The notes beneath the pieces were generated by a model, which saw only the letters and a program-made list of their open reading frames with translations, searched no databases and had not been told where the DNA came from. DNA of 64,000 nt, taken from the NCBI GenBank assembly GCA_000004695.1, contig CM000153.2, positions 4,768,001 to 4,832,000 on the forward strand, written 5' to 3'. The position numbers and the translations under genes were made by a program. This document shows, one piece after another, positions 1 to 64,000 of the stretch (positions within the stretch are counted from its first letter, which is position 1; each line of letters opens with the position of its first letter). The stretch comes from Dictyostelium discoideum. Lineage: Eukaryota.

Positions 1-924
1 ATAAAATATTAATAATAATATTATAAATAAATATTAATTTTTTGTTATTTTTTTTTTTTTTATTACTATTAAAATAATGAATGAAACAATAAAATCTATA
101 TATACAATTTCGATGACTAAAATTTAATTATGTAAAAAAAAATAATTAAAAGGGTGGTTTTTTTTTTTTTTTAATTATTTTTTTTTTTTTTATTTTTTTT
201 TTTTTATTTTAATTTTTATTTTTTTATTTTTCCCAATATCTTTGCAAAATAGGTTCGTTTTCTGGAAGAATATTTTTATTATTTTTATTATTTTTTATTT
301 TTTTTTTTTTTAATTAGTTTTTAATTTAAATTTGAAAAAAAAAAATAAAATAAAAAGTTTAAATAAGATAAATTTTGAAAAAAAAAAAAAAAAAATTAAT
401 TTGAAAATAATTTTTTTAATTTGTGGTGTTATATTGAGACTTTTTTAGTTTTAAAACATGTCAAAAAAAAAAAAAAAACCATAAATTTCCAGAAATGTGG
501 GTTGGGAAATTTAATTTTCTTTTTATTTTGGATCATTATATAAATATAATAAAAGTAATTTAATGTTGTCATTATTAAAAAAAATTTTGTTTTTTTTTTC
601 TAATTTTATTTAATTTATTTTTTATTTTTTATTTTTTTTTTTAAAAAAAAAATTTATAAATTGAATTCTATATATACATTTATAAATAACTAATTTTATA
701 AATTTTTAGAAAAAATAAGGGTGGTCGGATATAAAAATTTCGGCATTTATGTGGTGAAAAGTAATTTTGTGCGCTGGTTTTATTTTTTTATTTCCCTTAA
801 AAAAAAAAATGATAGAAAAAAAAAAAAAAAATAAAAAAAAAAAAATAGAAAAAAAAATATACATACAACCAATTTATTTTTAAAATTATTTTTATTTTTT
901 TTTTTTTTTTATTTTTTTTTATTT

Positions 925-2804
925 TTATTTATAACCAGTTTGAGAATATTTAAATAAGTTATTTTTAAAATCGTCAACTGGAGTTGGTTGTAAATATCTT
1001 GGTTGTGATTGTTGTGGTTGTAATGGTGGTGATTGATTATTAGGGGAAGATGAAGATGACGATGACGGAGTTGGAGTTACAGTTTGTGATTTCTTTTTAC
1101 CAGAAAGACTAAACCTTCTAGATTTCTTTCTTTCATGTGAAGGTGGTTGTTGTGGTGAAGATGATAATGGTGTTGATAAAGGTTCAGAGGGTGGTAAATT
1201 AATTGGATCAGTATCTCTAACTCTATCCAGTATTGGACTTTTATGTTTAATTTTTAATTTCTCTAATTCTGTTTGTTGACTTAATATATGATTTTTATTA
1301 TCTCCTCCTCCTCCTCCTCCTCCTACTTCTAAATTATTTTTATTTTTATTATTATTATCGCTATTATTGTCGCTATTATTATTATTTTTTAATTGTTTTT
1401 CATAATCACCAATAGGTATTAACGAATTTGGGGTTGATGATATATTTGTCGAAATTGTAGTTAATGATATATTATTTTCGTCATTCTTTTCATAGTCATT
1501 ATTATTATTATTACTACTACTATTATTATTATTACCATCATTTGTAATCATACCTCTTCCTTCATTATTATTTCTATTTAAGAATTTAAATTTCCATAAT
1601 TTAATTGAACTTGAATAATATCCTAATGAGTCTAAAATTGGGAATAATGCAAATTCCTAATATAAAATAAAATAAAATATTAATATTATATTATTATTAT
1701 TATTATATTATTGTTGTTTGATTAAAAAAAAAAAAAAAAAAGATGCCATACCAAAACACCAATTAATAAAACTACTATATCAACGAAAAAGAAAGCATTA
1801 AATAATGCTTGACTTATTTTACCAATATTTAATGTGAAAATTAAAACTACTTTAATTGCTACTTCTAATGGTAAAAATGCTATAAAACTGAATTGTAATA
1901 ATCTAATTCTATTTATTAGTGACCTATTAATAATTGTTTTTGAGAATTTTCTTGATATAAAAACTATAATAAATAATTATTATTTTATTGGAAGGATGAC
2001 AAATAAAATATATTAGTAAACTTCATTTTGATACATGTATTTTGTGTTTTGTTTTGTTTTGTTTTTTTTTTTTTTTTTTCTTCCAACACTTACTAAAAAA
2101 TAATAAAAATAAAACATAAAATATAGCAAATGCAGCAGTGCTAACAATTGGTACTAAACATTTTGATTCTTCATTATCGAATACAGTATATGCTATATTA
2201 ACCTTATCATTTAATGCATCTAAAATTAATAATACAATATGAACAATAATCAATGGTAACGAACATATAAATGCACATAAATAAACATAATCATTTGGGT
2301 CTTCAAAATTTAATCTATTTGTAAAAATTCTAAAAATTCCACTCTGATTATTATTATTATTACGACCTTTATCTCTACTACAAAATTTTAAAAAGTATTT
2401 ATAAAAAAAAAAAAAAAATTAGTTTATATTTTAATAAATTATTATTTATTATTTATTATTGAATTTACATACTTTGTTTTTGATTTAAGTGTAAATAATA
2501 CAGATAAAAAGAATAAGGGTTCAGCTAAACCTACAGTAAAGAATAAATGTAAACCACAAATTGCAGCAGAATGTGATTTTATACCAAATAAACCATCTGT
2601 ATTCCAAAGGTATTCATTACCCAACATTAAAAATACAACCCATATAAATGCTGAACTTGCTAGTAATGCTCTTGATTTCCAATACATATTAAACTCTAAT
2701 TTTCTATTCTTTATAATCACTACTATCACACCAATTAAAAATAATAATACAATCAATACAATGACAAATTCAATAATACCTAATATCTTTTGCCATGATT
2801 CCAT
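925..2804 (-). CDS. Seven-transmembrane protein (~519 aa) with a long Asn/Ser/Pro-rich C-terminal tail; family not identified. complement(join(925..1656,1752..1963,2094..2377,2473..2804))
   Basis: ATG at 2804 (MESWQKILG...). Four exons joined by GTATGT/GTAAGT/GTATGG donors and T-rich AG acceptors, all phase-consistent. Seven predicted hydrophobic helices. The last exon equals track ORF 925..1551 extended upstream to 1656. Confidence 0.6.
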
Positions 2805-3304
2805 TTTTTTTTTTTTTTTTTTTTTTTATATCTTTATTTGAATTATATTATTACAGCGAAATTATTATTATTGTTTTTTTATTTTATTTTATTTTATTAT
2901 TTTATTTTATTATACATAGATATTTTTTTTTTTTTTTTTATCTTTTGTTTTGATCTTTTTTTTTTTTTATTAATTTTTTTTTTTTTTTTACAGATATAAA
3001 AAAAAAAAAAAAATTGGATGTGATTGATTATAGGAGTCAGAAAAAAAAAAAATTAATAATATGATTAAAAAATTTATTTATATTTTTACAACCAAATTAC
3101 CGTTAAAAAAAAAAAAAATTTTATTTTATTTTTTTTTTTTAATTTTTTTTTTTTTTTTTTCATTTTTATTTTTATTTTTATTTATTTTTATTTTTATTTT
3201 TATTTTTATTTTTTTTTAAAAATTTTTTAAAAGGGTGTTGTGTGTGATCACACAAAAATAAACATTTGATATCTCACAAAAATCTTACCAAAGATTTTTT
3301 TTTT

Positions 3305-3336
<32 letters not shown>

Positions 3337-3342
3337 TTTTTC

Positions 3343-3436
3343 TTTCCCTCACACCCACTAATCCAAAGATGTGGGAAACACTAAAATTTTTTTTTTTTTT
3401 TTTCCCTCATACCCACTAATCCAAAGATGTGGAATC
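3343..3436. repeat. Two copies of a ~34-bp C-rich direct repeat (TTTCCCTCA(C/T)ACCCACTAATCCAAAGATGTGG), 58 bp apart, in the 7TM-gene 5' / exchanger-gene 3' intergenic region
   Basis: 3343-3376 and 3401-3434. Each copy contains the 'CACCCAC…GTGGG' inverted arms and an ACACCCA (CA-rich element-like) core. A perfect 14-bp palindrome TGTGTGATCACACA lies nearby at ~3238-3251. Confidence 0.6.
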
Positions 3437-3484
3437 ACTAATTGTTATTTTAATATTTTTATTTTTTTTTTTATTTTTTTTATT

Positions 3485-3731
3485 TTAAGCAATTGGGTCA
3501 ATAACAGGTATATCACCTTCATCAATGTTTATATTATATTTATATTGTATTATTCCAGCTAATAAGAAAATAGCGAATAACATTAAACCATGTTGTTGTT
3601 TTATCTTGTTCACAAAATAACCAATACCAGATGCTGCAGCTGCACAAATTGTCAATAATATCAAGCATAATGAATATGTAGGTGATTCCCATTCAAATCC
3701 TTTAACAACTCCAAAGAAACAGAAAATCTAT

Positions 3732-3775
<44 letters not shown>

Positions 3776-4590
3776 AATACATTAGTTTAATTATAATTAA
3801 ATAAATAGAAATAGAAATAAAAATAAAAACTTACACCCATTAATAAAGTTGTTTTGGTTATTGTACCACCAATTAAATTTGAAAAAGCTATATTAATACT
3901 TTGAGAATGACCTTTTCTTGATAATGAAATTGATTCTAAGATTTCAGGCATTTCTGAAGCAATTGGAGCTAAAAAGAATGCTAATAAGATTGGATTAATT
4001 TCCCAAGATGATGCTAATGATACAATTGAGTCAATGAATGGTTTACTAAAGTAACAAATTAAAAGACCACCTAAAAATAAATAAAATACACCTTTATATA
4101 ATGGTTCGTCATGTTCATCTTCTTCATCGGTGTCTTCGTCGTCGGATTCTGTTGATGATGCTGTTGTTGATGCTGTCGTTTGTTCATTTGCACCATTCTT
4201 TCTTTCACCCATTTCAATATCACGATCTTCTTTTTTCTCGTCTTCTGGTAATTTATGAAATAATGAATATCCAATGAATATTAAATAATAGATTATTCCG
4301 AAAATACCAAAGAAAACATTATATCCAACCAATGATAAGAATAATGGTATCAATAATGATAATAGTAAAATTAAACATTGCTTTTTAACTGGTGGTTGTA
4401 ATTGAAATGATCCACCTTTTCTATTTCTTGTACCTAAAACTATACAACATCCCAACGCTACTGTACAAACTACAATACTACTACCACTAACTGCTCCAAC
4501 TGCAAATCTTGTATTATCACTTGTTAATGCTGTTATAAAGAAAATTGCTTCTGGTGCTAAAATATAATAGCAAAATATTAATTATATTAG

Positions 4591-4627
<37 letters not shown>

Positions 4628-4787
4628 TGTGTGAATTGCACTTACCTGTATTTAACCAAGCTATAATTAGACCACCAATAATTGAGGCATCATATTTCTT
4701 ACCAAGGATTTCACCACCTTCACCAACACACCAAGATGCAAAACAAAGAAATGCAAACGATAAAAATGCTGTGATAACTGGTGTCAT
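3485..4787 (-). CDS. CaCA-superfamily cation/Ca2+ exchanger-like membrane protein (~368 aa). complement(join(3485..3727,3835..4556,4646..4787))
   Basis: Two alpha-repeat-like motifs: 'AWLNTAPEAIFFI' spanning the exon1/exon2 junction and 'LAPIASEMPEILESIS' in exon 2, resembling the G(S/T)SxPE motif of NCX/YrbG. Multi-TM hydrophobicity and an acidic cytoplasmic loop (DDEDTDEEDEHDE). The true ATG is at 4787; the track start at 4823 is a TTG. The first intron contains (TA)11. Confidence 0.65.
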
Positions 4788-5021
4788 ATTAAATTTAATA
4801 AAAAAAAGGGTGTGAAAGTCCAACCTTTTTATTTTATAAAAACAAGAATTTTATTTTATTTTTTTTTTTTAATTTTTGAAAAAAAAAAAAAAAATTAAAA
4901 AATTATTTTGTTTTTTTAAAAATAATTTTCCAATAAAAGAAATAATAATAATGTTACAAATAAATTTAGATATTACAAAATTATATTTATATTTATACTA
5001 TAAACATTCGTTTTTTCAATT

Positions 5022-5059
<38 letters not shown>

Positions 5060-5187
5060 TCATTTGAAAATTAAATTGATTTTTTTATTTTTTTTTTTTT
5101 TTTTATTTTTATTTTTATTTTTATTTTTATTTTTATTTTTATTTTTATTTTTTTATTTTTATTTTTAATTTTAATTTTAACAAACCA

Positions 5188-5236
<49 letters not shown>

Positions 5237-5312
5237 CTAAACAGAAATAATAAAAATAAAATATTAATTAATTGGTTTTTTTTTTTTATTTTTTTTTATT
5301 TTTTTTTTTTTA

Positions 5313-6503
5313 TTAATAATTTGGATCAACTTTTTTTGATAATTTCATTAACATATAAGTGAAAATGAAAACTATTAAAACAAAAACAATGATAAGACAA
5401 TAGTTTAAAGTATCTTTTGTTGATTTTGATGTATAATCTTTTAAATTTAAATTTTGTCTTTGAATTTTTGAAGAACTTGTATCAACCAATTGACCAAGTT
5501 CATTTAATTTTTTATCTTCTTCCGATAGTTTTGTTGACATTGTATTTGAATGATTCTTTAAACTCTCTGAGTAATCTAATAGTTCAGATGTTAATAGCTC
5601 TTGTTGTAATCTTTGTTCCTCTGTTTTCTTTTCAAATGAATCATCATCCAATAACTCATTATTAAATAAATTATCATTCTCTGCTGCTTTATTACCTAAT
5701 AAACTCTTTAATTCTGAATTTCTATTTTGAAATTGATTTCTAAATCTTAATGCTGGTGATAAATTATTATTATTACTGCTACTAAAATTACTCCTATTTG
5801 GTGTTTTAATTATATTATTATTATTATTATTATTATTATTGCTATTATTATTATTGCTATTATCTACATTTTGTGGTATTAATTGGTCAATTTTCTTTTT
5901 TTCTTCTTTATTTCTTGTTTTCATTACAGTTTGAATTTCATCCATTTTCTTTGAATGTGAAATACTACTAGCTTGTAGACGTACGATACTGGGTTTATTT
6001 GAAATTGGTGAATTTAATTTCTCTTTATTTACAAGTCCAACTATTACATCTATCTTTCTAGAATATTCACTTAATGCTTCTTTTGATATAATATAATTTG
6101 ATGATGATGATGAGGGAGTAGATGTAGAAGATGATGGTGTTGTTGATGAAGATGAGGGAGAAGATAATTGAGCTATTTGGGGTGAACTTAATTGATTTGC
6201 AGTATTTGTATATAATTGAAATAATGGTGACGATAATGATTGTTGTTGCTGTTGTTGTTGCTGATGTTGATGTTGCTGTTTATTTTGTTCATACATTTTC
6301 TCATTTAATTGTTTTAATAGTGATAACATAGTTGGTATATATCTTTCAACTGTGAATGTATTATCAATGAGTACTGGTCTAATCTCACCTTCACCATTAA
6401 TAACATCAACTTTATCGTCATCCGCTATAATCTTTTCACATGATGATATTAATCTCTTTAAATTAATTTCTATCTTTTTAATATCACTTATATTTGTTGT
6501 CAT
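5313..6503 (-). CDS. Tail-anchored coiled-coil protein (396 aa) with a poly-Q/poly-N/Ser-rich middle and one C-terminal TM helix; possibly a SNARE-like (Use1/Sec20-type) protein.
   Basis: Single uninterrupted ORF from ATG 6503. The only hydrophobic helix (LIIVFVLIVFIFTYMLM) sits 10 residues from the C-terminus. It is preceded by heptad-like charged/Leu-rich sequence (…EEDKKLNELGQLVDTSSSKIQRQNLNLKD). Confidence 0.5.
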   Translation of the reverse strand: MTTNISDIKKIEINLKRLISSCEKIIADDDKVDVINGEGEIRPVLIDNTFTVERYIPTMLSLLKQLNEKMYEQNKQQHQHQQQQQQQQSLSSPLFQLYTNTANQLSSPQIAQLSSPSSSSTTPSSSTSTPSSSSSNYIISKEALSEYSRKIDVIVGLVNKEKLNSPISNKPSIVRLQASSISHSKKMDEIQTVMKTRNKEEKKKIDQLIPQNVDNSNNNNSNNNNNNNNNIIKTPNRSNFSSSNNNNLSPALRFRNQFQNRNSELKSLLGNKAAENDNLFNNELLDDDSFEKKTEEQRLQQELLTSELLDYSESLKNHSNTMSTKLSEEDKKLNELGQLVDTSSSKIQRQNLNLKDYTSKSTKDTLNYCLIIVFVLIVFIFTYMLMKLSKKVDPNY

Positions 6504-6577
6504 TGTAATTTATACATATATAAATATAATTATTTTTCTGTGTGTTTTTATTATTTTCATTTAAATGTTTGGAATTG

Positions 6578-6611
<34 letters not shown>

Positions 6612-6706
6612 ATTTTCTGTTTTTTTTTTTTTTTAATTAAAAAATAAAAATTAAAACCACAGACACGTGTGTTTATTGTGAGTCAAAAAATAAAAACAAA
6701 AATAAA

Positions 6707-7636
6707 ATGGATATTTATAGTTTTAAGAATATTCAAATTGTGACCACCTCAAAAGAATTGGTGGACATTGTTTCACTAAAGATTCAAAATAATTTTCAAA
6801 CAGATAAGCAAAATTCAATTAGTCATATTCGTTCCACATATATGAAAAAAGTTAAATGCGCATCACAGTTCTATAATGAAAAATTAAATCAAATTGTTAT
6901 TGATTTTCCATTTTTAGAAGTATGTACTTATAAAATAAAATATATTTAAAAATACATGTAAAATAAAATTAATTTTTTTAATTTTTTTAATTTTTTTTTT
7001 TATATAAATAAAGAATATTCATCCATTTTATAAAGATATTTTAAATAAAGAATGTGATTTAAATAAATATAAAATAGAATTGGATCAAATTAGTATTGTT
7101 ATAAATTCAATTATTAAAATAAAAAATAAATATTTAAAATTATTGAAATATAGTAATTCATTAAACCAATTTAAACAATTGGAAATAATTTCAATAAATA
7201 GAATTAATAAATTAATTTTAAATTATGAATCATCTTTAAAATATTTAGAACAATTTAGAAAACATTTATTAAATTTACCATCAATTAATGCAAATACACC
7301 AACGCTATTAATAATTGGGTATCCATTAGTTGGTAAATCAACATTAACGAATATTCTAACAATTGCAAATGTTAATGTTGAAACATTAACTTCAAATTTA
7401 TTATTCGTTGGTAATACAAATTTTCAAAATAATAATAATAATAATAGTATTTTACAAGTTATAGATACTCAAAGTATATTTGATCATCCATTAGTAGATG
7501 AAATTGAAATCAAGTCTATTAATGCATTAACTCATTTAAATTGTTGTATTTTATTTTTAATTGATATTTCTGAACAATGTGGTTATTCAATTAAAAAACA
7601 AGTAAAGTATAAAACATTTAAAAATGAAAAACTATT

Positions 7637-7699
<63 letters not shown>

Positions 7700-7979
7700 T
7701 AATTTTTTTTTTTTTTTTTTTTTTTTAATACATTAGGTTGATTTATTTTTAAATGTTCAATTATTATTTTCTGACAAACCATCATTGATTTTATTAAATA
7801 AAATTGATATAAAAAATCCCAACCATTTACCTGAAAATGATTGGAAATTATTAAAAAATTTGGAAAAACCAATAAATAGTAGTTTTGGTGGTATACAATT
7901 AATACCAATGTCAAATTTAATAAGTGATAGTATTTTAAAAGTTAAAGAGAAAGCATATAACACTTTAAATGGGATTTAA
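6707..7979 (+). CDS. NOG1-like nucleolar GTP-binding protein paralogue, truncated (~347 aa: NOG1 N-terminal domain plus G domain, no NOGCT C-terminal region). join(6707..6919,7014..7601,7737..7979)
   Basis: Colinear with NOG1: N-terminus 'YSFKNIQIVTTSKELVDIV…HIRSTYMKKVK'; 'IHPFYKDIL'; P-loop 'IIGYPLVGKST'; 'EQCGYSIKKQ|VDLFLNVQLLF…LILLNKIDIK' (NKxD). Donors are GTATGT (6920) and GTAAAG (7602); acceptors are aaag (7013) and cattag (7736). The second intron contains (ATA)n plus a T-run. Confidence 0.7.
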
Positions 7980-8483
7980 AATAAAAAAAAAAAAAAAAAA
8001 AAAACCTTTTTGGCAATAACCAAATTAAAAGAAAAAATAAAAAAATAAAAATAAAAAATTTGTTTATTATAATAAACATTGTTTCCTGTAATATATGTTC
8101 AAAATCATACGGTTGATTTTTTTTTTCTGAAAATGATGTTGGTTTTCTTTTTTTTTTTTTTTTTTTTTTTTTATAAAATGTAAAATGAAAGTGAACAACA
8201 AAAAAAAATACACTATTTTTAGGTTCCAAATATTCAAAATAATAGGCTAAATTTGCAATATTGTAAAACATAATCTCGATAGAAATACACAAAAGAAAAA
8301 AGGTTTATTTTTTTTTTTAAAAATTTTATTATCTTTTTTTTTCATTTAAATTTATTAAATTTAATTTAATTTTTTTTTTAATTAAATTATTGAAAAAAAA
8401 AAAAGTAAAGTAAACTTCAAAAAAAAAAAAAAAAGTAAATGGTTTAAATGAATGCTATTATTAGAACAAAAACCAAAATTATA

Positions 8484-8515
<32 letters not shown>

Positions 8516-8780
8516 CTTCACCTATTGAGGCTAATTTTGTAAAATTTAGATGTCAAAATCATTCCCAAATAGAAAAGGTCCATTATTTTAAAAAGAATGG
8601 TTTGTCCATGGACACTTTAATTAAATTTTAATAAAACATTTTTTTTAAAAACTTTTTTTTTTTTAATTGTGTCATACAACGTCATAGTAAAATATAAACT
8701 AATCTATTTTTAAAATTTTTTTTTTTTTTTTAAACCCAAAAATAAAAAAAAAAGTTAAAACACTTAGTAAGTTCTAAAAC

Positions 8781-8820
<40 letters not shown>

Positions 8821-9469
8821 TATAAAAGAGATAAAAAATATCTGTTTACTTTTTTTTTTCTAAACACTTTTTTATTTGAAAATAAGAAAAAAAAAAAAAA
8901 AAAAAATTAAAAAAAAAAAAAAAAAAAATAAAGACTATAAGTAATTTATTTTTTTGTGCATTGTTTATTATAATAAAATTTGACTGTTACATATCTTTTT
9001 TTTTTCACAGACTCTATTTTAAGCCTTTTTTTTTTTCAAAAAATATCTCCCAAATTGTGCCATTGCCCCTACTAAATTTTTTGAAAAAGTGTAAAAAAAA
9101 TAATGAGATTTCAATTCAGATTGAAATGTCGTTTATTATAATAAAATTACCAACCAATCAAATGATATAAAACTGATATTTTTTTTTTTTTTTTTTTTTT
9201 TCTGGGCTCGAAAGTTAATTTAAAATGACTCCACATAACTCGCACAATGAAAACTTTTAATCGGCCTATTTCTACTGAGATCAAAATAATTTAAATGAAA
9301 ATAATCCCCTAACTGTTTTCTTTTTTTTTTTTTATTTTTTTTTATTTAATTTTTTTTTTTTATTTTAATTTAAAAAAATTTTTTTTATTTTTTCGGTTAT
9401 AGATTTCCTTTTTTAAAGGGCGTGATACATATCTTTTTTATTTTTTTTTTTTTTTTCTAAAATTCTGAC

Positions 9470-9520
<51 letters not shown>

Positions 9521-10121
9521 AATATTTAATATTTTTTTTCTTTTTTCTTTTTTTTTTTTTCTTTTAGTTTAGTTTATGTGATTATTTCTGCAAAGTTACC
9601 AACCATTTTTAACACTTTTTTGTAAAATTTTGTAATTTTTTTTTTCAAATAAGTTTTTTTTTTTTTTTTTGTCATTTTATTTTCTTTTAAACTATTTTTT
9701 TTTTTTTATATTTTATAATAATAATTATTCTAAATATATAAAAATAAAATATTTTTATATATACAATAATTTTTTTTTTTATTTTAAAATATATATAAAT
9801 AGTTTAATAATTGTAAAATTATATTCACCAATTTTTTTTTTTAAAACATATATATAAATTTGGTTATAATTTTACATATTTTTTATTTTGGAGATTTTTT
9901 TAGATTTTTATTTTTCCACTGTATTATTATAAAACTTGACACTTTTTTCACAAATTTTTTTTTTTCACTGCGCAATCACACCATCCAAAAAAAATATCTT
10001 TTTCTTTTTTTTTCCAAAAATCACCCCATAATCATTTATTTATAAAAAAAAAAAAAATAGAAAACAAAAATAAAAAATAAAAAATATAAAAATAAAAAAT
10101 AAAAATATAAAAAATAAAAAC

Positions 10122-10153
<32 letters not shown>

Positions 10154-10202
10154 AAATAAATAAATAAATAAAATTCTTTATTTTTTTTTTTTTTTTTAAA
10201 AA

Positions 10203-11350
10203 ATGATAAAATTAATTTTATCATTAATATTTTTAATAATATGTTGTAATATAAATCCAAGTGAAAGTTTTAAATTAATCACATTAACAACTGGACCAAC
10301 AAGTGATTTAGGTTTTAATAATATGGTTAATCAAGGTAGAATAGGTGTTTCAAAAGCAATGAATATCGAAGATTCAAGAATATTTATTGTATCAGGTAGA
10401 AATGAAACTTATGCTTTGCTTTTACCATTGATTCAAAATGATGATATTGATTTAGTAATTTGTTCAAGTCAAGATCATGGCGATGCATGTAAAGAGATTG
10501 CAGCAATGTATATTGATAGTCCAACCATTAAAACCCAATTCTTAGTAAGAGGTAGTGGTGCAGCTACAAAGAATTTAATTCAAATCACTTACAACTATGC
10601 CTCAGTCAATTATATTAGTGGTATGTTTGCAGGTTTACAAACTGTAAAGAATAAGATTGGGTTCCTTTCACCTGGTTCCGCAGCCAACAATAATGACTCA
10701 TTTGTTTATGCATTTTGGATCGGTGCTAAGCAAGTGAATCCAGATGTTAAATTTTATTATTACAATATTGGTAGCTACCTCGACCAAGATAAAACCATAG
10801 CAGCAACTCAAGATCTTATCAATATCTATGGTTGTGATGTTATAGCCGATACATTGGACGATTTCTCTGCTGGTAATGTCGCAATCCAAAATAACCAATA
10901 TGCAATGGGTACCAATGGGTTCCCACAAAGAGATGTGTATGGTGAGAATGTAATTTTCAGTTATGCCTACAATTGGACAAAATATTTCTTACCTATCGCA
11001 GGTTCCGTTGCCAATGGTACTGTTCCAGGTAAATGGTATGCTGATTTCAATAAAGAAGATAATTATAATTTCTATGATCTTAGCTTTGGTTTCAAAGTTT
11101 CACAAAATACCAAAGATCTTCTCATCCAAAAAAGTCGTGTACTTGCTACAACCCCAAGAGCCGGTCATCCATATTATTGTAATGAATATATAGAACAATA
11201 CACTAAAAAATATAATTTACCAACACAAGCAGCTAATTCAAGTTGTATAAGTACTGCTGGTTTCTTTTATATTAATCAACCAGTTGGTGATATGATTTAT
11301 TTAGGTAGTTATAATATTAGATTATCAAAAGTAAGTAAAAAATTAAATTG

Positions 11351-11386
<36 letters not shown>

Positions 11387-12576
11387 CAGTTTTTTCCAAA
11401 AAAAAAAAAAAAATAAAAATTCTAATACATATTTTTTTTTTTTTATAAAAAAAGATTGAATTTTCAAGTTCAGTTCAAAAAGGTTTTTCAATTGTTTCAG
11501 GTTGTTTAATTGCATTTGTAATATTAATGATGGTTGGTATTGTATATTATAAAGATACACCATCAATTCGTTCAGCAAGTCCAATTTTCTTAAACTTTAG
11601 TTTAATTGGTGGTATTATAATTTATATTGGTATTATTATTTGGGTTGGACCAATTAGTACACATCAATGTAATGCAAGATTTTGGTTAGTTACACTCGGT
11701 TTCTCAACATTGATTGGTAGTTTGGTAGTTAAAAACTTTAGAATTTGGTTGATTTTTGATAATCCAGAATTGAAAGCAATTAAAATTACAAATTATCAAT
11801 TGTTCCCATGGGTTGGTTTATGTTTGGTGATTAATATAGTTTTAATGGCAATTCTAACATCGGTTGGTGATTTGAAGGCTATTGAAGCTCAAGGAATTGA
11901 TTCGTTGGGTAAATATGAGTATATGACAGTATGTAAAATGAATAGTGCTGGTGCATCAACATTGTATTCGATTTTGGCATATTTTGCAGCACTTTTATTG
12001 GTTGGTGTTTTTGTGTCATGGAAAATCCGTATTGTAGATATCGAGGAGTTTAACGAATCAAAAGCAATTGCTAATACACTCTATGCCGTTAGTTTCTGTT
12101 TATTCGTTATTGTGCCATTGATGATTTCACCACAAGAGAAACAATCCGAGACTATTATCCTCTGCGTTGCTGGTCTTTTCATTACGACCGCTGCTCTATT
12201 AATTGTTTTCATTCCAAAATTCTGGAGAGTTTTCATTTATGGTAAAGAAGGTACAAATGAAATGTTTAAACAAAAGAAATCATCATCAGTTGCAACTGCT
12301 CGTGCTGAAAGTTTAAGTAAAAATAGTTCAAATGGTGGTGCTCATAGTGGTGGTGGTGCTGTTAAAACTAATCGTAGAGGTAATATTGTATCTGGTGATT
12401 TCACTGATGATTCAGAATCATCACTATCTGAACCAAATAAACCAACTAAAAATAATGATGGTAATGTAAATGTTACAGCTGGTGCTGTTTTAGCTGAATT
12501 CACTGATGATACAATCTCTGAATTTGATGAAAATGAAGTTAATGAAGAACCTGTAAAAACAGAATCTCAAGAATAA
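10203..12576 (+). CDS. GABA-B-like class-C GPCR of the Dictyostelium Grl type: signal peptide, Bmp/periplasmic-binding-like ectodomain and a 7TM domain. join(10203..11330,11455..12576)
   Basis: Exon 1 encodes a signal peptide (MIKLILSLIFLIICC) and a ~370-aa ectodomain. Exon 2 encodes 7 TM helices with family-C-like features plus a Ser/Gly/acidic C-tail. GTAAGT donor at 11331; AG acceptor at 11453-54; phase 0. Confidence 0.7.
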
Positions 12577-12613
12577 AAAAAAAAAATAATAATAAATTAA
12601 AATAATAAGTTAA

Positions 12614-12658
<45 letters not shown>

Positions 12659-60904: not shown

Positions 60905-63900
60905 TTAATGTTTGATTAAAGATCTTAAATATTGAGAGTTTTGAGTACCAGTTTCATCAATTAACCAATTGAATAAACTATTTTCATTTTGAGCCAATAT
61001 TGATGGTTTATTAAATTCGACGATTGAACCAGAATCTAAAACCATAATTCTATCACTTTCAACAATGGTGTTTAGTCTATGAGCGATTGTTAAAATGATT
61101 GCATCCTTAAACTTTTCACGAATAATTCTTTGAATTAATTCATCACTTAGAGAATCGACACTTGCTGTTGCTTCGTCGCATACTAAAATTTTAGGTTTCT
61201 TTAATAATGCACGACCAAGACCAATGAGTTGTTTTTGACCTTGTGACCAATTATCATTAACCCTAAGATCTAAACCCTCATCAGCGACCGATACCTTTTT
61301 AACATGTTCATATAACTGAATCTCTTTTAGGACATCCCATAACTCTGAATCTGTATGCTCTGATAAACTATCTAAATTACTTCTGAGAGTACCAGTGAAC
61401 ATTACTGGTTCTTGAGGGATAATAGCCAATTGACTACGTAAATCTTTTAAACCAATCTTTGATATATCAAGGCCATCAATGATAATTCTACCACTTGATA
61501 ACTCTACGATACGAAACAATGCCAACAATAAACTACTCTTACCACTACCTGTTCTACCACAAATTCCAATCTTTTCACCTGCTTTAATTTCAAATGAAAT
61601 ACCTTTCAATACTGCAGGTAAACCTTGACGATAACTCATTACAACATTTTCGAAAATGATGGGTGGAGTATGATTTGAATTTGTAAGTGATGGCCAACCC
61701 ATTGGTGGTCTATTTGATTCAATGATTTGATCGGGTTCCTGTGGTACATTTTCAGTGTAATAGCTAATTCTTTCGATAGAGTTCATTTTAGTTTCTAATT
61801 CTGCCAATTGTTGAGTTGCTTTATTTAAATTGGTTGTAAGACTAAGTGTATAACTAATTGATAAACCTACACTTGCAATTGCAATACTTGAACGATCGAC
61901 CGTAATAAAAATACAACTAAGGAGTGTAATTAAATTACCAAGTACACTTAAACGTAAACCTAACCATTGATTCATTGCTTGTAATGTTAAATAACATTTA
62001 TTATTATCATCCAACAATGCTTGATTCTTTAAAACATTTTCACCCATTTTTCTAAACGCTCTTAAAGTGATCACACCATTCAATGTCTCTGCAAAATGTG
62101 AGAAAATTGGTGATCTAGTAATTGATTCGATTCTTTGAATTTGAATTGAAGTTCTTCTATAAAAGTATTGAATAAAGTAGAATAAAATTATAATTGGTGT
62201 CATTGGTAATAATAACCAAGGTGTTGCTATCGATATGATTACTAAAATCGCTATACAATTGGTTGAAAAATTTAAAAATTGATTTAAAGAATTTGTTAAC
62301 AACATATCCACAATATCGGTATCTCTTGTAAATCTATTTAAAATACGTCCCAATGGTACAGTATCAAAGAACCACATTGGTGCTCTAAGAATTGACCAAA
62401 ATAATCTCTTATGAATTTCTGTTGTTGCTCTAATTGAATATTCAAAGAATACAATTGTACGAACAATAATTAATAAAACTGTAAGTACACCAATTGCAAT
62501 AAATACTCCAAGAAATTCACCTGCATTTTCAATATCACCATCTTCATTTATATTTAAACTACTTAAACTATCAATAATATAACTACTACTACTACTAATA
62601 CTATTACTACTACTACTATTATTATTATTAATACCTGTTGATGTATGTTTTGATGACCAATTACTTAACCACCAATTTGTAAATGTTGAAGTTGAAGTAT
62701 CAATACAATAACCAAGTAGTGCAATTAAAAATAAGAAACCACCACCAGCAGTTACATAATACATATAATGTTTAAAAGATACCGAACCTTCTTCTCTTTC
62801 TTCGATTGTTGTTAATTTACCATCGTAAAGATCATTGTTGTTTTCTTTTGATTTTATCATTTCATCATCAACGATTTCATCACTATCTTTATCACTATCA
62901 CCAGCCATGTGAGCATATTGTTTTAAAAGTTCGCTGAATAAACTACTATTACCATAAGCAGAATTGATTGTTGAAATTATATTTTCAAAGGTATCATATT
63001 GTTCGACTTCACCACCAGTTTTCAATATTAAAGTTTGAGTTGAATATGGACAATAGTTTAACTGATTCGTTGCTAATACTACTATTTTCTCCTTTAGAAT
63101 ACCTTTGATACAATTATAGAAAAGGTGTTTACCAACATGTGCATCGACAGCTGATAAAATATCATCTAAAATATAGATATCTGAATCAGAGTAAACTGCA
63201 CGTGCAATTGCGACACGTTGTTTTTGACCACCAGATAAATTAATACCACGTTCACCAATCTCAATAAGATCACCTTGTGGGAATAATGCAAGATCGGGTA
63301 AAAGTGCACAACAATTCAATACCATTTCATATCTCTCCTTATTATACTCTTTACCAAATAGAATATTATCCTTTAACGATGCATTCATAATCCATGCACT
63401 CTGTGAAACATATGCAATACTACCAACCACTCTTAAAGATCCATTATTCTCTAATTCCATCTCACCTAACAATGCTTGACAAAATGATGATTTACCACTA
63501 CCAACTGGTCCGATTACCATTAATAATGATCCTTTTTCTTTAACTTGACAACTTGTATTTTTTAATGAAAATGATACTTGAACTTCTTTTTTTTCATTAT
63601 TACTATTATTGCCACTAGGTGAACTTTTATCATTACTTGGTGTTGTTCTTGGTGGTGGTGGATTAGTTTGAGGTTTAATTGCCCAAGAAAAAGTAGTATT
63701 ATCCATATAAATCCCAATATCAGTTTGTTGTTGTTTTTGTTGATCACAAACATTAACATTAATTTCATTATTTTTATCATCACCTTGATTAATTTCATCC
63801 ATATTTAAAAAATTAACAACACGTTCAATTGAAACCTTAAATTGAATGTAAATATTATAACCATATGGTAAGAAAGTGAATGGAACACGAATAATATTTA

Positions 63901-64000
63901 AATATGCAACAGCTGCAAATATTTTATCCGCTGGTAATTTACTATTAACTAAATAATAAACTGTAAACATAAATATTGAAATAATTGTTGGAATTGATTG
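60905..64000 (-). CDS. ABC transporter, ABCC (MRP) subfamily; 3' portion only (NBD1, TMD2, NBD2). The 5' end lies beyond the window edge.
   Basis: NBD1 Walker A 'GPVGSGKSS', signature 'LSGGQKQRVAIARA', Walker B 'IYILDD'. NBD2 'GRTGSGKSSLLLALFR', 'NWSQGQKQLIGLGRALL', 'ILVCDEATASVD'. A long TMD2 lies between them. Stop at 60905. Confidence 0.85.
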   Translation of the reverse strand, partial: QSIPTIISIFMFTVYYLVNSKLPADKIFAAVAYLNIIRVPFTFLPYGYNIYIQFKVSIERVVNFLNMDEINQGDDKNNEINVNVCDQQKQQQTDIGIYMDNTTFSWAIKPQTNPPPPRTTPSNDKSSPSGNNSNNEKKEVQVSFSLKNTSCQVKEKGSLLMVIGPVGSGKSSFCQALLGEMELENNGSLRVVGSIAYVSQSAWIMNASLKDNILFGKEYNKERYEMVLNCCALLPDLALFPQGDLIEIGERGINLSGGQKQRVAIARAVYSDSDIYILDDILSAVDAHVGKHLFYNCIKGILKEKIVVLATNQLNYCPYSTQTLILKTGGEVEQYDTFENIISTINSAYGNSSLFSELLKQYAHMAGDSDKDSDEIVDDEMIKSKENNNDLYDGKLTTIEEREEGSVSFKHYMYYVTAGGGFLFLIALLGYCIDTSTSTFTNWWLSNWSSKHTSTGINNNNSSSSNSISSSSSYIIDSLSSLNINEDGDIENAGEFLGVFIAIGVLTVLLIIVRTIVFFEYSIRATTEIHKRLFWSILRAPMWFFDTVPLGRILNRFTRDTDIVDMLLTNSLNQFLNFSTNCIAILVIISIATPWLLLPMTPIIILFYFIQYFYRRTSIQIQRIESITRSPIFSHFAETLNGVITLRAFRKMGENVLKNQALLDDNNKCYLTLQAMNQWLGLRLSVLGNLITLLSCIFITVDRSSIAIASVGLSISYTLSLTTNLNKATQQLAELETKMNSIERISYYTENVPQEPDQIIESNRPPMGWPSLTNSNHTPPIIFENVVMSYRQGLPAVLKGISFEIKAGEKIGICGRTGSGKSSLLLALFRIVELSSGRIIIDGLDISKIGLKDLRSQLAIIPQEPVMFTGTLRSNLDSLSEHTDSELWDVLKEIQLYEHVKKVSVADEGLDLRVNDNWSQGQKQLIGLGRALLKKPKILVCDEATASVDSLSDELIQRIIREKFKDAIILTIAHRLNTIVESDRIMVLDSGSIVEFNKPSILAQNENSLFNWLIDETGTQNSQYLRSLIKH

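What the first reader, a model, noticed from the sequence alone, without database searches (positions are those of the whole stretch)
6707..7979. Truncated NOG1 paralogue with a degenerate G3 motif
The gene is colinear with NOG1 through the N-terminal domain and the GTPase domain (P-loop GYPLVGKST, NKID), but it stops about 80 residues after G4. It therefore lacks the whole NOGCT/C-terminal half (347 aa instead of ~650). The G3/switch-II box reads VIDTQSIFDH instead of DTPGILDH, i.e. it has no DxxG glycine, which predicts impaired GTP hydrolysis or nucleotide sensing. This looks like a diverged, possibly regulatory or pseudo-GTPase duplicate of an essential ribosome-biogenesis factor.
Basis: partly seen in the sequence, partly recalled or inferred. 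Interest (0 to 1): 0.55.

Follow-up and report, generated by a model that had tools for sequence, protein, structure and literature searches.

The report
Truncated, switch-defective NOG1 duplicate in Dictyostelium
This is a young extra copy of the essential ribosome-assembly GTPase NOG1 in the social amoeba Dictyostelium discoideum that keeps only the front half of the protein and has lost residues needed for the GTP switch; it is made as protein in mid-development and is under selection, yet close relatives have lost it, so it is a modest evolutionary curiosity, not a new kind of system.

Summary
Window 6707-7979 (+) holds a three-exon gene for a 347-aa protein identical to D. discoideum AX4 DDB_G0286641 (UniProt Q54LG9). 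It has the NOG1 N-terminal helical domain and the NOG1 G domain, no NOGCT or C-terminal tail, and G3 reads DTQS instead of DTPG.

No NOGCT-coding DNA exists anywhere in the 64-kb window, and the canonical 674-aa nog1 (DDB_G0285465) lies elsewhere on chromosome 4.

New findings:
- The P-loop K+-ligand Asn is Leu, and switch I is two residues shorter.
- The gene is under purifying selection between two D. discoideum lineages (dN/dS 0.20, p=2e-5).
- The protein was detected by mass spectrometry only at the mound stage.
- The syntenic copy is a multiply disabled pseudogene in D. cf. discoideum and a decayed relic in D. citrinum, and it is absent from that site in D. firmibasis and D. purpureum.
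- D. firmibasis has a G-domain-only copy with DTQS at another locus.
- All short copies form one long-branch clade.

Best reading: a lineage-restricted, dispensable partial duplicate that cannot replace NOG1 and probably acts as a switch-defective pseudo-GTPase. A competitor or decoy role at the pre-60S is plausible but untested. Interest is modest.

The parts
6504..6706 (.). Short divergent intergenic/promoter region shared with the Use1 gene (DDB_G0286811, 5313-6503, minus strand)
   Evidence: ORF list. Use1 identified. The 5' flank is conserved up to the ATG in D. citrinum and in L002/L003.
6707..6919 (+). Exon 1, residues 1-71 (start of the NOG1 N-terminal helical domain)
   Evidence: Gene model, identical to the annotated 347-aa protein.
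6920..7013 (+). Intron 1 (GT...AG)
   Evidence: Splice sites are conserved in L002.
7014..7601 (+). Exon 2, residues 72-267: rest of NOG1_N (to residue 162, nt 7286) and the G domain with G1, G2 and G3
7317..7343 (+). G1/P-loop GYPLVGKST. GxxxxGKS/T is intact, but the K+-ligand Asn position (L176, nt 7326-7328) is Leu
   Evidence: Sequence. Asn in 260 of 270 homologues, Ser in 9, Gly in 1, never hydrophobic. Role of Asn(K) = yeast N177 from PMC6968927.
7380..7394 (+). G2/switch I 'ETLTS', replacing canonical 'QPYAFTT' (2-residue deletion, F to L, second T to S)
   Evidence: Alignments and column counts.
7464..7475 (+). G3/switch II DTQS in place of DTPG (P224Q, G225S)
   Evidence: The same DTQS is in L002, the L003 pseudogene and D. 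firmibasis P0003.
7602..7736 (+). Intron 2, containing an (AAT)n microsatellite and a poly-T tract. Its length varies between strains and its position is shared with the D. firmibasis copy
7737..7979 (+). Exon 3, residues 268-347 plus the TAA stop. Includes G4 NKID (7797-7808) and the last helix of the G domain. No coding continues beyond it

Best explanation
DDB_G0286641 is a young, lineage-restricted partial duplicate of the ribosome-biogenesis GTPase gene nog1. It encodes only the N-terminal helical domain and the G domain, the same two-domain layout as archaeal Nog1 homologues. It lacks the whole C-terminal tail that in yeast binds Rlp24, wraps the pre-60S and enters the exit tunnel.

Shown:
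- It is a real, spliced, intact gene, under purifying selection in D. discoideum.
- Its protein was detected at the mound stage of development.
- It belongs to one fast-evolving clade of short NOG1 copies that share DTQS.
- It is dispensable, because sister lineages carry a pseudogene or a relic.

Inferred:
- G1 (GxxxxGKS/T) and G4 (NKxD) are intact, so it probably still binds guanine nucleotide.
- The G3 glycine, the G3 proline and the K+-ligand Asn are lost and switch I is shortened, so it probably cannot perform the GTP-driven switch or hydrolysis. That would make it a pseudo-GTPase.
- Without the Rlp24-binding tail it cannot substitute for NOG1.

Most likely mode of action (about 0.3 on its own): it acts as a non-catalytic competitor or decoy for the NOG1 N-terminal/G-domain docking site or its partners on pre-60S particles. 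It would appear in mid-development, when canonical NOG1 and ribosome biogenesis are being shut down.
For: Identity and architecture. AF2 model with pLDDT 88.9 matches Nog1 chains in yeast and human pre-60S structures at TM 0.72-0.76 and archaeal PH1320 at TM 0.79/0.77. No NOGCT in the window. Canonical nog1 lies elsewhere.

Selection: dN/dS 0.196 against a lineage with dS 0.09 (14.5 nonsynonymous and 16.5 synonymous changes, Fisher p=1.8e-5). All indels are in frame and splice sites are kept.

Protein: detected at the mound stage only, in both duplicates at 1.0-1.5e7, while nog1 falls from 1.7e8 to 3-6e6. None of 19 tryptic peptides is shared with 274 NOG1 homologues.

Single origin and acceleration: 100/100 NJ bootstraps and branches about twice as long as canonical ones. 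Only 57 of 91 conserved columns are kept.

Motif lesions are unique in the family.

Yeast precedents (PMC6968927): Nog1 G223A, the same glycine, is dominant-negative. It is still recruited to the pre-60S but is not released. Nog1(1-426) cannot support viability. Nog1 lacking the Rlp24 region is dominant-negative when overexpressed.
Against: The syntenic copy carries at least five disabling lesions in D. cf. discoideum, is a decayed relic in D. citrinum, and is undetectable at that site in D. firmibasis and D. purpureum. Any function is therefore non-essential and recent.

A third of the family's conserved positions are lost, including the N-terminal TQRKTPT motif. In yeast, Nog1 recruitment depends on Rlp24. 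Both points argue against stable pre-60S binding.

The proteomic identification may rest on a single peptide. No transcript data were found. The dN/dS estimate rests on only about 31 substitutions. Nucleotide binding, hydrolysis, localisation and ribosome association are all untested.
Confidence: 0.6

Rival explanations
1. It is a functionless duplicate on its way to loss. The open reading frame in AX4 and one sister lineage is a survivor, and the apparent constraint and the single-stage MS signal are noise.
For: Pseudogene in D. cf. discoideum with a frameshift, a nonsense codon and a P-loop deletion. Relic in D. citrinum. Absent from the syntenic site in D. firmibasis and D. purpureum. Loss of 34 of 91 conserved positions and of catalytic motifs. 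One peptide was enough for identification in the proteome study.
Against: Under neutrality about 70 nonsynonymous changes would accompany 16.5 synonymous ones, and 14.5 are seen (p=1.8e-5). All three coding indels are in frame and all splice sites are kept. The pseudogene branch shows the expected relaxation (pN/pS 0.55 against 0.19-0.28). DTQS has been retained since before the split from the D. firmibasis copy. The protein was seen in both duplicates at the same stage.
Confidence: 0.25
2. It is a neofunctionalised nucleotide-binding protein that no longer acts on ribosomes, for example a developmental signalling or scaffold protein at the mound stage.
For: The mound-only abundance profile is the opposite of ribosome-biogenesis factors. 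The tail that anchors NOG1 is missing, and conserved N-terminal-domain motifs are lost. The branch is long.
Against: The N-terminal domain remains basic (net +9, pI 9.4, within the canonical range). The predicted fold is unchanged. No new domain or motif was acquired. No partner or localisation data exist.
Confidence: 0.13
3. It is the organism's real NOG1 and was mis-modelled: the C-terminal half is encoded by missed 3' exons, or this is the only NOG1 gene.
For: None was found.
Against: No NOGCT-like coding lies anywhere in the 64-kb window. The next gene 2.2 kb downstream is a Bmp/7tm_3 receptor. An independent annotation gives the same 347 aa. Canonical nog1 DDB_G0285465 (674 aa) is abundant in vegetative cells.
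Confidence: 0.02

Closest known systems
Canonical eukaryotic NOG1 / GTPBP4 (yeast Nog1, human GTPBP4, D. discoideum nog1 DDB_G0285465)
   Same: It has the NOG1_N helical domain and the NOG1-type Obg-like G domain, colinear with human residues 3-337. The predicted fold superposes on Nog1 in pre-60S cryo-EM structures. G1 GxxxxGKS/T and G4 NKxD are intact.
   Different: It has no C-terminal tail or NOGCT: 347 aa against 634-674. G3 is DTQS rather than DTPG. Asn(K) is Leu. Switch I is shortened. Only 57 of 91 conserved positions are kept. It is lineage-restricted and dispensable, not universal and essential. Its abundance peaks at the mound stage, not in growing cells.
Engineered yeast Nog1 mutants: G223A (Nog1-DN), Nog1(1-426), Nog1 delta427-536 (PMC6968927); the human G3 mutant of Lapik et al. 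2007, as cited there
   Same: The same G3 glycine is replaced, and the Rlp24-binding tail is missing. In effect this is a natural combination of two laboratory loss-of-function or dominant-negative lesions.
   Different: It is a natural gene kept by selection alongside a wild-type NOG1. The glycine is Ser, not Ala. It has further lesions at Asn(K), G2 and the N-terminal domain, which may weaken ribosome binding and so blunt any dominant-negative effect. No phenotype is known.
Archaeal two-domain Nog1 homologues (e.g. Pyrococcus horikoshii PH1320, PDB 2e87, 357 aa)
   Same: The architecture and size are the same: N-terminal helical domain plus G domain and no tail. This is the best whole-chain structural match (TMq 0.79, TMt 0.77).
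   Different: By sequence it is clearly a derivative of eukaryotic NOG1 (E=4e-73 to human against 1e-34 to PH1320). The resemblance is secondary truncation, not ancestry. I did not inspect the G motifs of PH1320.
Pseudo-GTPases in general (G domains that keep the fold but have lost switch or catalytic motifs); from general knowledge, not tested here
   Same: The G fold is retained with degenerate G3 and G2 and a probably intact nucleotide pocket.
   Different: Membership depends on biochemical proof of absent hydrolysis or switching, which is not available here.

Membership tests
NOG1 / GTPBP4 family | NOG1 N-terminal helical domain (Pfam PF17835) | tested here: met
   Residues 6-162, E=9.5e-29, 101 bits against a cut-off of 22.9. 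Helical bundle predicted with pLDDT about 87-97.
NOG1 / GTPBP4 family | NOG1-type G-domain signature (Pfam PF06858) | tested here: met
   Residues 234-291, E=7.8e-23, 80.5 bits against a cut-off of 27.
NOG1 / GTPBP4 family | C-terminal NOGCT domain and long tail, including the Rlp24-interaction region (yeast 427-536) | tested here: not met
   The protein ends at the equivalent of human residue about 340. There is no NOGCT Pfam hit and no NOGCT-like coding in the whole window.
NOG1 / GTPBP4 family | Canonical G3 DxxG (DTPG) | tested here: not met
   The motif is DTQS. Gly is present in 263 of 266 and Pro in 263 of 265 homologues.
NOG1 / GTPBP4 family | G1 GxxNxGKS with the K+-ligand Asn (Group I cation-dependent GTPase; yeast N177) | tested here: not met
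   The motif is GYPLVGKST. GKS/T is kept but Asn is replaced by Leu. Asn is present in 260 of 270 homologues and the position is never hydrophobic. The role comes from PMC6968927.
NOG1 / GTPBP4 family | G4 NKxD guanine-specificity motif | tested here: met
   NKID at residues 288-291.
NOG1 / GTPBP4 family | Conserved, essential, essentially single-copy gene across eukaryotes | tested here: not met
   An intact copy was found only in AX4 and one other D. discoideum assembly. The gene is a pseudogene, a relic or absent at the syntenic site in four related species.
NOG1 / GTPBP4 family | Association with nucleolar/nuclear pre-60S particles | not testable with these tools
   Needs localisation or gradient/affinity purification experiments.
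Pseudo-GTPase | G fold retained but no GTP hydrolysis or nucleotide-dependent switching | tested here: inconclusive
   The fold is retained, and G2, G3 and Asn(K) are degenerate. Biochemical activity cannot be tested here.

The most novel reading that the evidence does not exclude
The short protein is a naturally evolved, developmentally timed dominant-negative NOG1. It would be a GTP-switch-dead decoy that occupies the NOG1 docking site or titrates its partners at the mound stage, helping to shut down 60S production during multicellular development. Its rapid birth-and-death among sibling species would reflect conflict or lineage-specific tuning of growth arrest.
Probability: 0.12. Interest if true: 0.65.

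Novelty: new variant of a known kind. Interest (0 to 1): 0.32.

Why it matters
NOG1 is a universal, essential 60S assembly factor, and no retained truncated paralogue turned up in the papers I searched. This copy naturally combines two lesions that are lethal or dominant-negative when engineered in yeast: loss of the G3 glycine and loss of the Rlp24-binding tail. It is nevertheless kept under selection and made as protein at one developmental stage. If it does interfere with or modulate pre-60S maturation, it would be a genetically tractable example of ribosome-biogenesis control by a decoy assembly factor. If not, it is a well-dated case of partial duplication, subfunction loss and repeated pseudogenisation, useful mainly for annotation. 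UniProt currently names it 'Nucleolar GTP-binding protein 1', which overstates what it is.

Tried and rejected
(1) Missing 3' exons. tblastn with 76 NOGCT-containing NOG1s found nothing in the window. The only off-target hits, near 61.4 kb, are P-loop similarity to an ABC transporter.

(2) Obtaining the canonical D. discoideum NOG1 sequence for a parent-daughter phylogeny and intron comparison. The word-indexed searches did not list it, and the exhaustive search hides it inside a 50% cluster. Only its existence, length and position were recovered, from a paper supplement.

(3) Treating the D. firmibasis 208-aa protein as the orthologue. Rejected, because its flanks share nothing with the window and the true syntenic site in D. 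firmibasis is empty.

(4) Loss of positive charge as evidence that rRNA binding is lost. Rejected, because the N-terminal domain has net charge +9 and pI 9.4, within the canonical range.

(5) Expression data. There was no full-text hit for the gene ID, and nothing in four supplements. One proteome paper had it.

(6) RNA genes or tRNAs in the flanks. None were found.

(7) The D. citrinum relic as a low-complexity artefact. Rejected by shuffled and real AT-rich controls.

Full report
**What is there.** The window is about 20% G+C with poly-N and poly-Q coding tracts. Only one GT-AG exon combination starting at the ATG at 6707 stays open: 6707-6919, 7014-7601 and 7737-7979 on the + strand, giving 347 aa. 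[quoted passage not shown] Pfam assigns NOG1_N (residues 6-162, E=9.5e-29) and the NOG1 G-domain signature (234-291, E=7.8e-23), and finds no NOGCT. The protein aligns colinearly with human GTPBP4 residues 3-337 of 634 (E=4e-73), with fungal Nog1 proteins (E about 1e-60), and with the 357-aa archaeal homologue PH1320 (E=1e-34). The only inaccuracy is that the protein ends 56 residues after NKID, not about 80.

- *3' exons.* tblastn with 76 NOG1 proteins that carry NOGCT finds the known exons and nothing NOGCT-like anywhere in the 64 kb. The weak hits near 61.4 kb belong to an ABC transporter. The next gene, 2.2 kb downstream, is a Bmp/7tm_3 receptor.
- *Only NOG1 gene?* No. The supplement of PMC6830349 lists nog1 as DDB_G0285465 (Q54N72, NOG1_DICDI), 674 aa, on chromosome 4 at 3,263,032-3,265,230. 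The 2026 life-cycle proteome quantifies it at high abundance.

**How degenerate is the GTPase?** I aligned the protein with about 270 homologues.
- The G3 glycine is present in 263 of 266 homologues. Only one of the three exceptions has an otherwise intact motif (DTPA).
- The preceding proline is present in 263 of 265.
- The P-loop Asn in GxxNxGKS is present in 260 of 270, with Ser in 9 and Gly in 1. The window protein has Leu there.
- Switch I is two residues shorter and reads LTS where 259-265 of 267 homologues read F-T-T.
- G1 GxxxxGKS/T and G4 NKxD are intact.

Across 91 columns that are at least 90% conserved in 45 full-coverage canonical NOG1s, the protein keeps 57. The canonical median is 89 and the minimum 59. 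The losses include the N-terminal TQRKTPT motif and several Arg residues. The N-terminal domain is still basic (net +9, pI 9.4; canonical range +6 to +20), so charge gives no evidence that RNA binding has been lost.

An AlphaFold2 model is confident (pLDDT 88.9, pTM 0.77). It superposes on Nog1 chains in yeast, Chaetomium and human pre-60S structures (TM 0.72-0.76). The best whole-chain match is the two-domain archaeal PH1320 (TMq 0.79, TMt 0.77).

**Relevance of these lesions (PMC6968927).**
- Yeast Nog1 G223A, which changes the same glycine, is lethal and dominant-negative. It is recruited to pre-60S particles but not released. The paper reports the equivalent human mutant as dominant-negative too.
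- Nog1 is described there as a predicted K+-dependent GTPase whose Asn(K) is N177, the position that is Leu in the window protein.
- Nog1(1-426), which lacks the tail including the Rlp24-binding region 427-536, does not support viability.
- Nog1 delta427-536 is dominant-negative on overexpression.
- Nog1 and Rlp24 depend on each other for recruitment.

The window protein stops well before the equivalent of residue 426. It therefore cannot be a functional substitute for NOG1 (inference from these data).

**Is it a live gene?**
- A second assembly labelled D. discoideum (GCA_054859385.1, locus L002) is colinear with the window at about 91% nucleotide identity. It carries an intact 351-aa orthologue.
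- Nei-Gojobori counts give dS 0.090, dN 0.0175 and dN/dS 0.196, from 16.5 synonymous and 14.5 nonsynonymous changes (Fisher p=1.8e-5). Six neighbouring ORFs give 0.06-0.35.
- The coding indels are all in frame and the splice sites are conserved.
- In PMC12821622, DDB_G0286641 protein was quantified only at the mound stage, in both biological duplicates (1.51e7 and 1.03e7). Canonical nog1 falls from 1.7e8 in vegetative cells to 2.3-2.7e7 at the mound stage and 3-6e6 in fruiting bodies. That fits the paper's statement that ribosome-assembly proteins decline after starvation.
- Caveat: one peptide was enough for identification in that study.
- None of the 19 tryptic peptides of 6-35 aa occurs in any of the 274 NOG1 homologues I hold. 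The D. discoideum canonical sequence itself was not among them.

**Evolutionary history.**
- *Distribution.* An exhaustive profile-free search of 1.84 billion cluster representatives found no relative above 43% identity, apart from a D. firmibasis protein (P0003, 208 aa) and a D. cf. discoideum fragment (P0157).
- *Synteny anchor.* I used the adjacent single-copy Use1 gene to fetch the orthologous site in five genomes.
- *D. cf. discoideum.* The copy is a pseudogene. It has a +1 frameshift at codon 5, Y148 TAT>TAG, a 51-bp deletion that removes the P-loop, a 5-bp deletion and a 2-bp deletion. Its branch has pN/pS 0.55, against 0.19-0.28 on the intact branches.
- *D. citrinum.* A colinear relic remains. 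The 5' flank aligns up to the ATG. About 170 bp of the intron 1/exon 2 junction survives and now contains a stop codon. The exons are otherwise mostly deleted. This match scores 103 bits, against at most 54 in 200 Markov nulls and at most 51 in nine real AT-rich controls.
- *D. firmibasis, D. purpureum and P. violaceum.* The D. firmibasis and D. purpureum syntenic gaps show only background similarity. P. violaceum has no protein-level hit.
- *The D. firmibasis copy.* It lies at an unrelated locus and has no room for an N-terminal domain upstream. It keeps DTQS, the switch-I deletion and the intron 2 position, but retains the P-loop Asn and the G2 Thr.
- *Single clade.* The three short proteins group in 100 of 100 NJ bootstraps of the G domain. 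Their branches are about twice the canonical length. Their identity to canonical NOG1s has a median of 41-45%, against 61% among canonical NOG1s.
- *Conclusion.* The DTQS change and the truncated state arose once, before D. discoideum and D. firmibasis diverged. The family has since evolved by relocation, further truncation and repeated loss.

**Interpretation.**
- *Shown.* This is a real, expressed, constrained but dispensable partial duplicate of nog1. It has the N-terminal and G domains, no tail, and uniquely degenerate G2, G3 and Asn(K).
- *Inferred.* It binds nucleotide but cannot switch or hydrolyse normally, and it cannot replace NOG1.
- *Preferred mechanism (about 0.3).* It acts as a non-catalytic competitor or decoy at the NOG1 docking site or for its partners during mid-development. 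This follows the yeast dominant-negative precedents.
- *Main rival (0.25).* It is a duplicate drifting towards loss. The dN/dS result, the preserved frame and splice sites, and the reproducible stage-specific detection argue against this. The repeated losses in sister lineages argue for it.
- *Third reading (0.13).* It has a ribosome-independent new function.
- *Mis-annotation (0.02).* The idea that this is a mis-modelled full-length NOG1 is refuted.

**Novelty and score.** The gene is annotated but uncharacterised. No paper in the searched library mentions it in its main text. It is a new variant of a known family, not a new kind of system. The coincidence with the experimentally defined dominant-negative glycine and the mound-specific protein signal make it a reasonable small project for a Dictyostelium or ribosome-biogenesis laboratory. 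Its dispensability and narrow distribution limit its wider importance. Interest: 0.32.

**Not done.** I never obtained the canonical D. discoideum NOG1 sequence. The short-copy clade is therefore not rooted against its parent, and intron positions were not compared. I could not search whole genomes for further copies, and I found no transcript-level data.

Noticed in passing
L002 (GCA_054859385.1) against window 1-16300: An assembly labelled Dictyostelium discoideum differs from AX4 by about 9% at synonymous and intergenic sites (dS 0.08-0.10 across seven ORFs), with perfect colinearity. That is a great deal for one species and suggests a cryptic or sibling lineage. 'D. cf. discoideum' (L003) is more distant still.
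   Followed up: partly
L001 8001-8716 (D. firmibasis CM069766.1): A 208-aa, G-domain-only NOG1-like gene with DTQS sits at a non-syntenic locus. It starts about 360 bp from a divergently transcribed ORF whose sequence resembles a Y-family (IMS-type) DNA polymerase (my reading of the sequence; no family search was run). A separate 550-aa MMR_HSR1/FeoB_N-type GTPase lies about 2.5 kb away. Its C-terminus (…IKDKLLIF) aligned weakly, in one MAFFT run, with canonical residues just past the end of the G domain. If real, that would hint that the ancestral short copy extended further than the D. discoideum one.
   Followed up: partly
window 7636-7736: Intron 2 carries a long (AAT)n microsatellite followed by a poly-T run. 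The repeat is about 50 bp shorter in L002 and L003, so intron length is polymorphic while the splice sites are conserved.
   Followed up: partly
window 8241-10192: The 2-kb intergenic stretch between the gene's 3' end and the downstream Bmp/7tm_3 receptor gene aligns colinearly with D. citrinum at 74% identity over about 2.1 kb, and partly with D. firmibasis (window 8945-9946, 70%). No Rfam or tRNA hit lies in it. It is probably the receptor gene's upstream regulatory region.
   Followed up: partly
window 60905-63970 (minus strand): A 1021-aa ORF that runs towards the window end. By its sequence it encodes an ABC-transporter-like protein with two nucleotide-binding domains. It produced weak P-loop hits in the NOG1 tblastn screen and is unrelated to the finding.
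   Followed up: no
(database behaviour): The word-indexed homologue search missed an 87%-identical fragment (P0157), and it did not list the 674-aa canonical D. discoideum NOG1 or any hit longer than about 530 aa. Negative results from that tool on AT-rich, low-complexity queries should not be read as absence.
   Followed up: no
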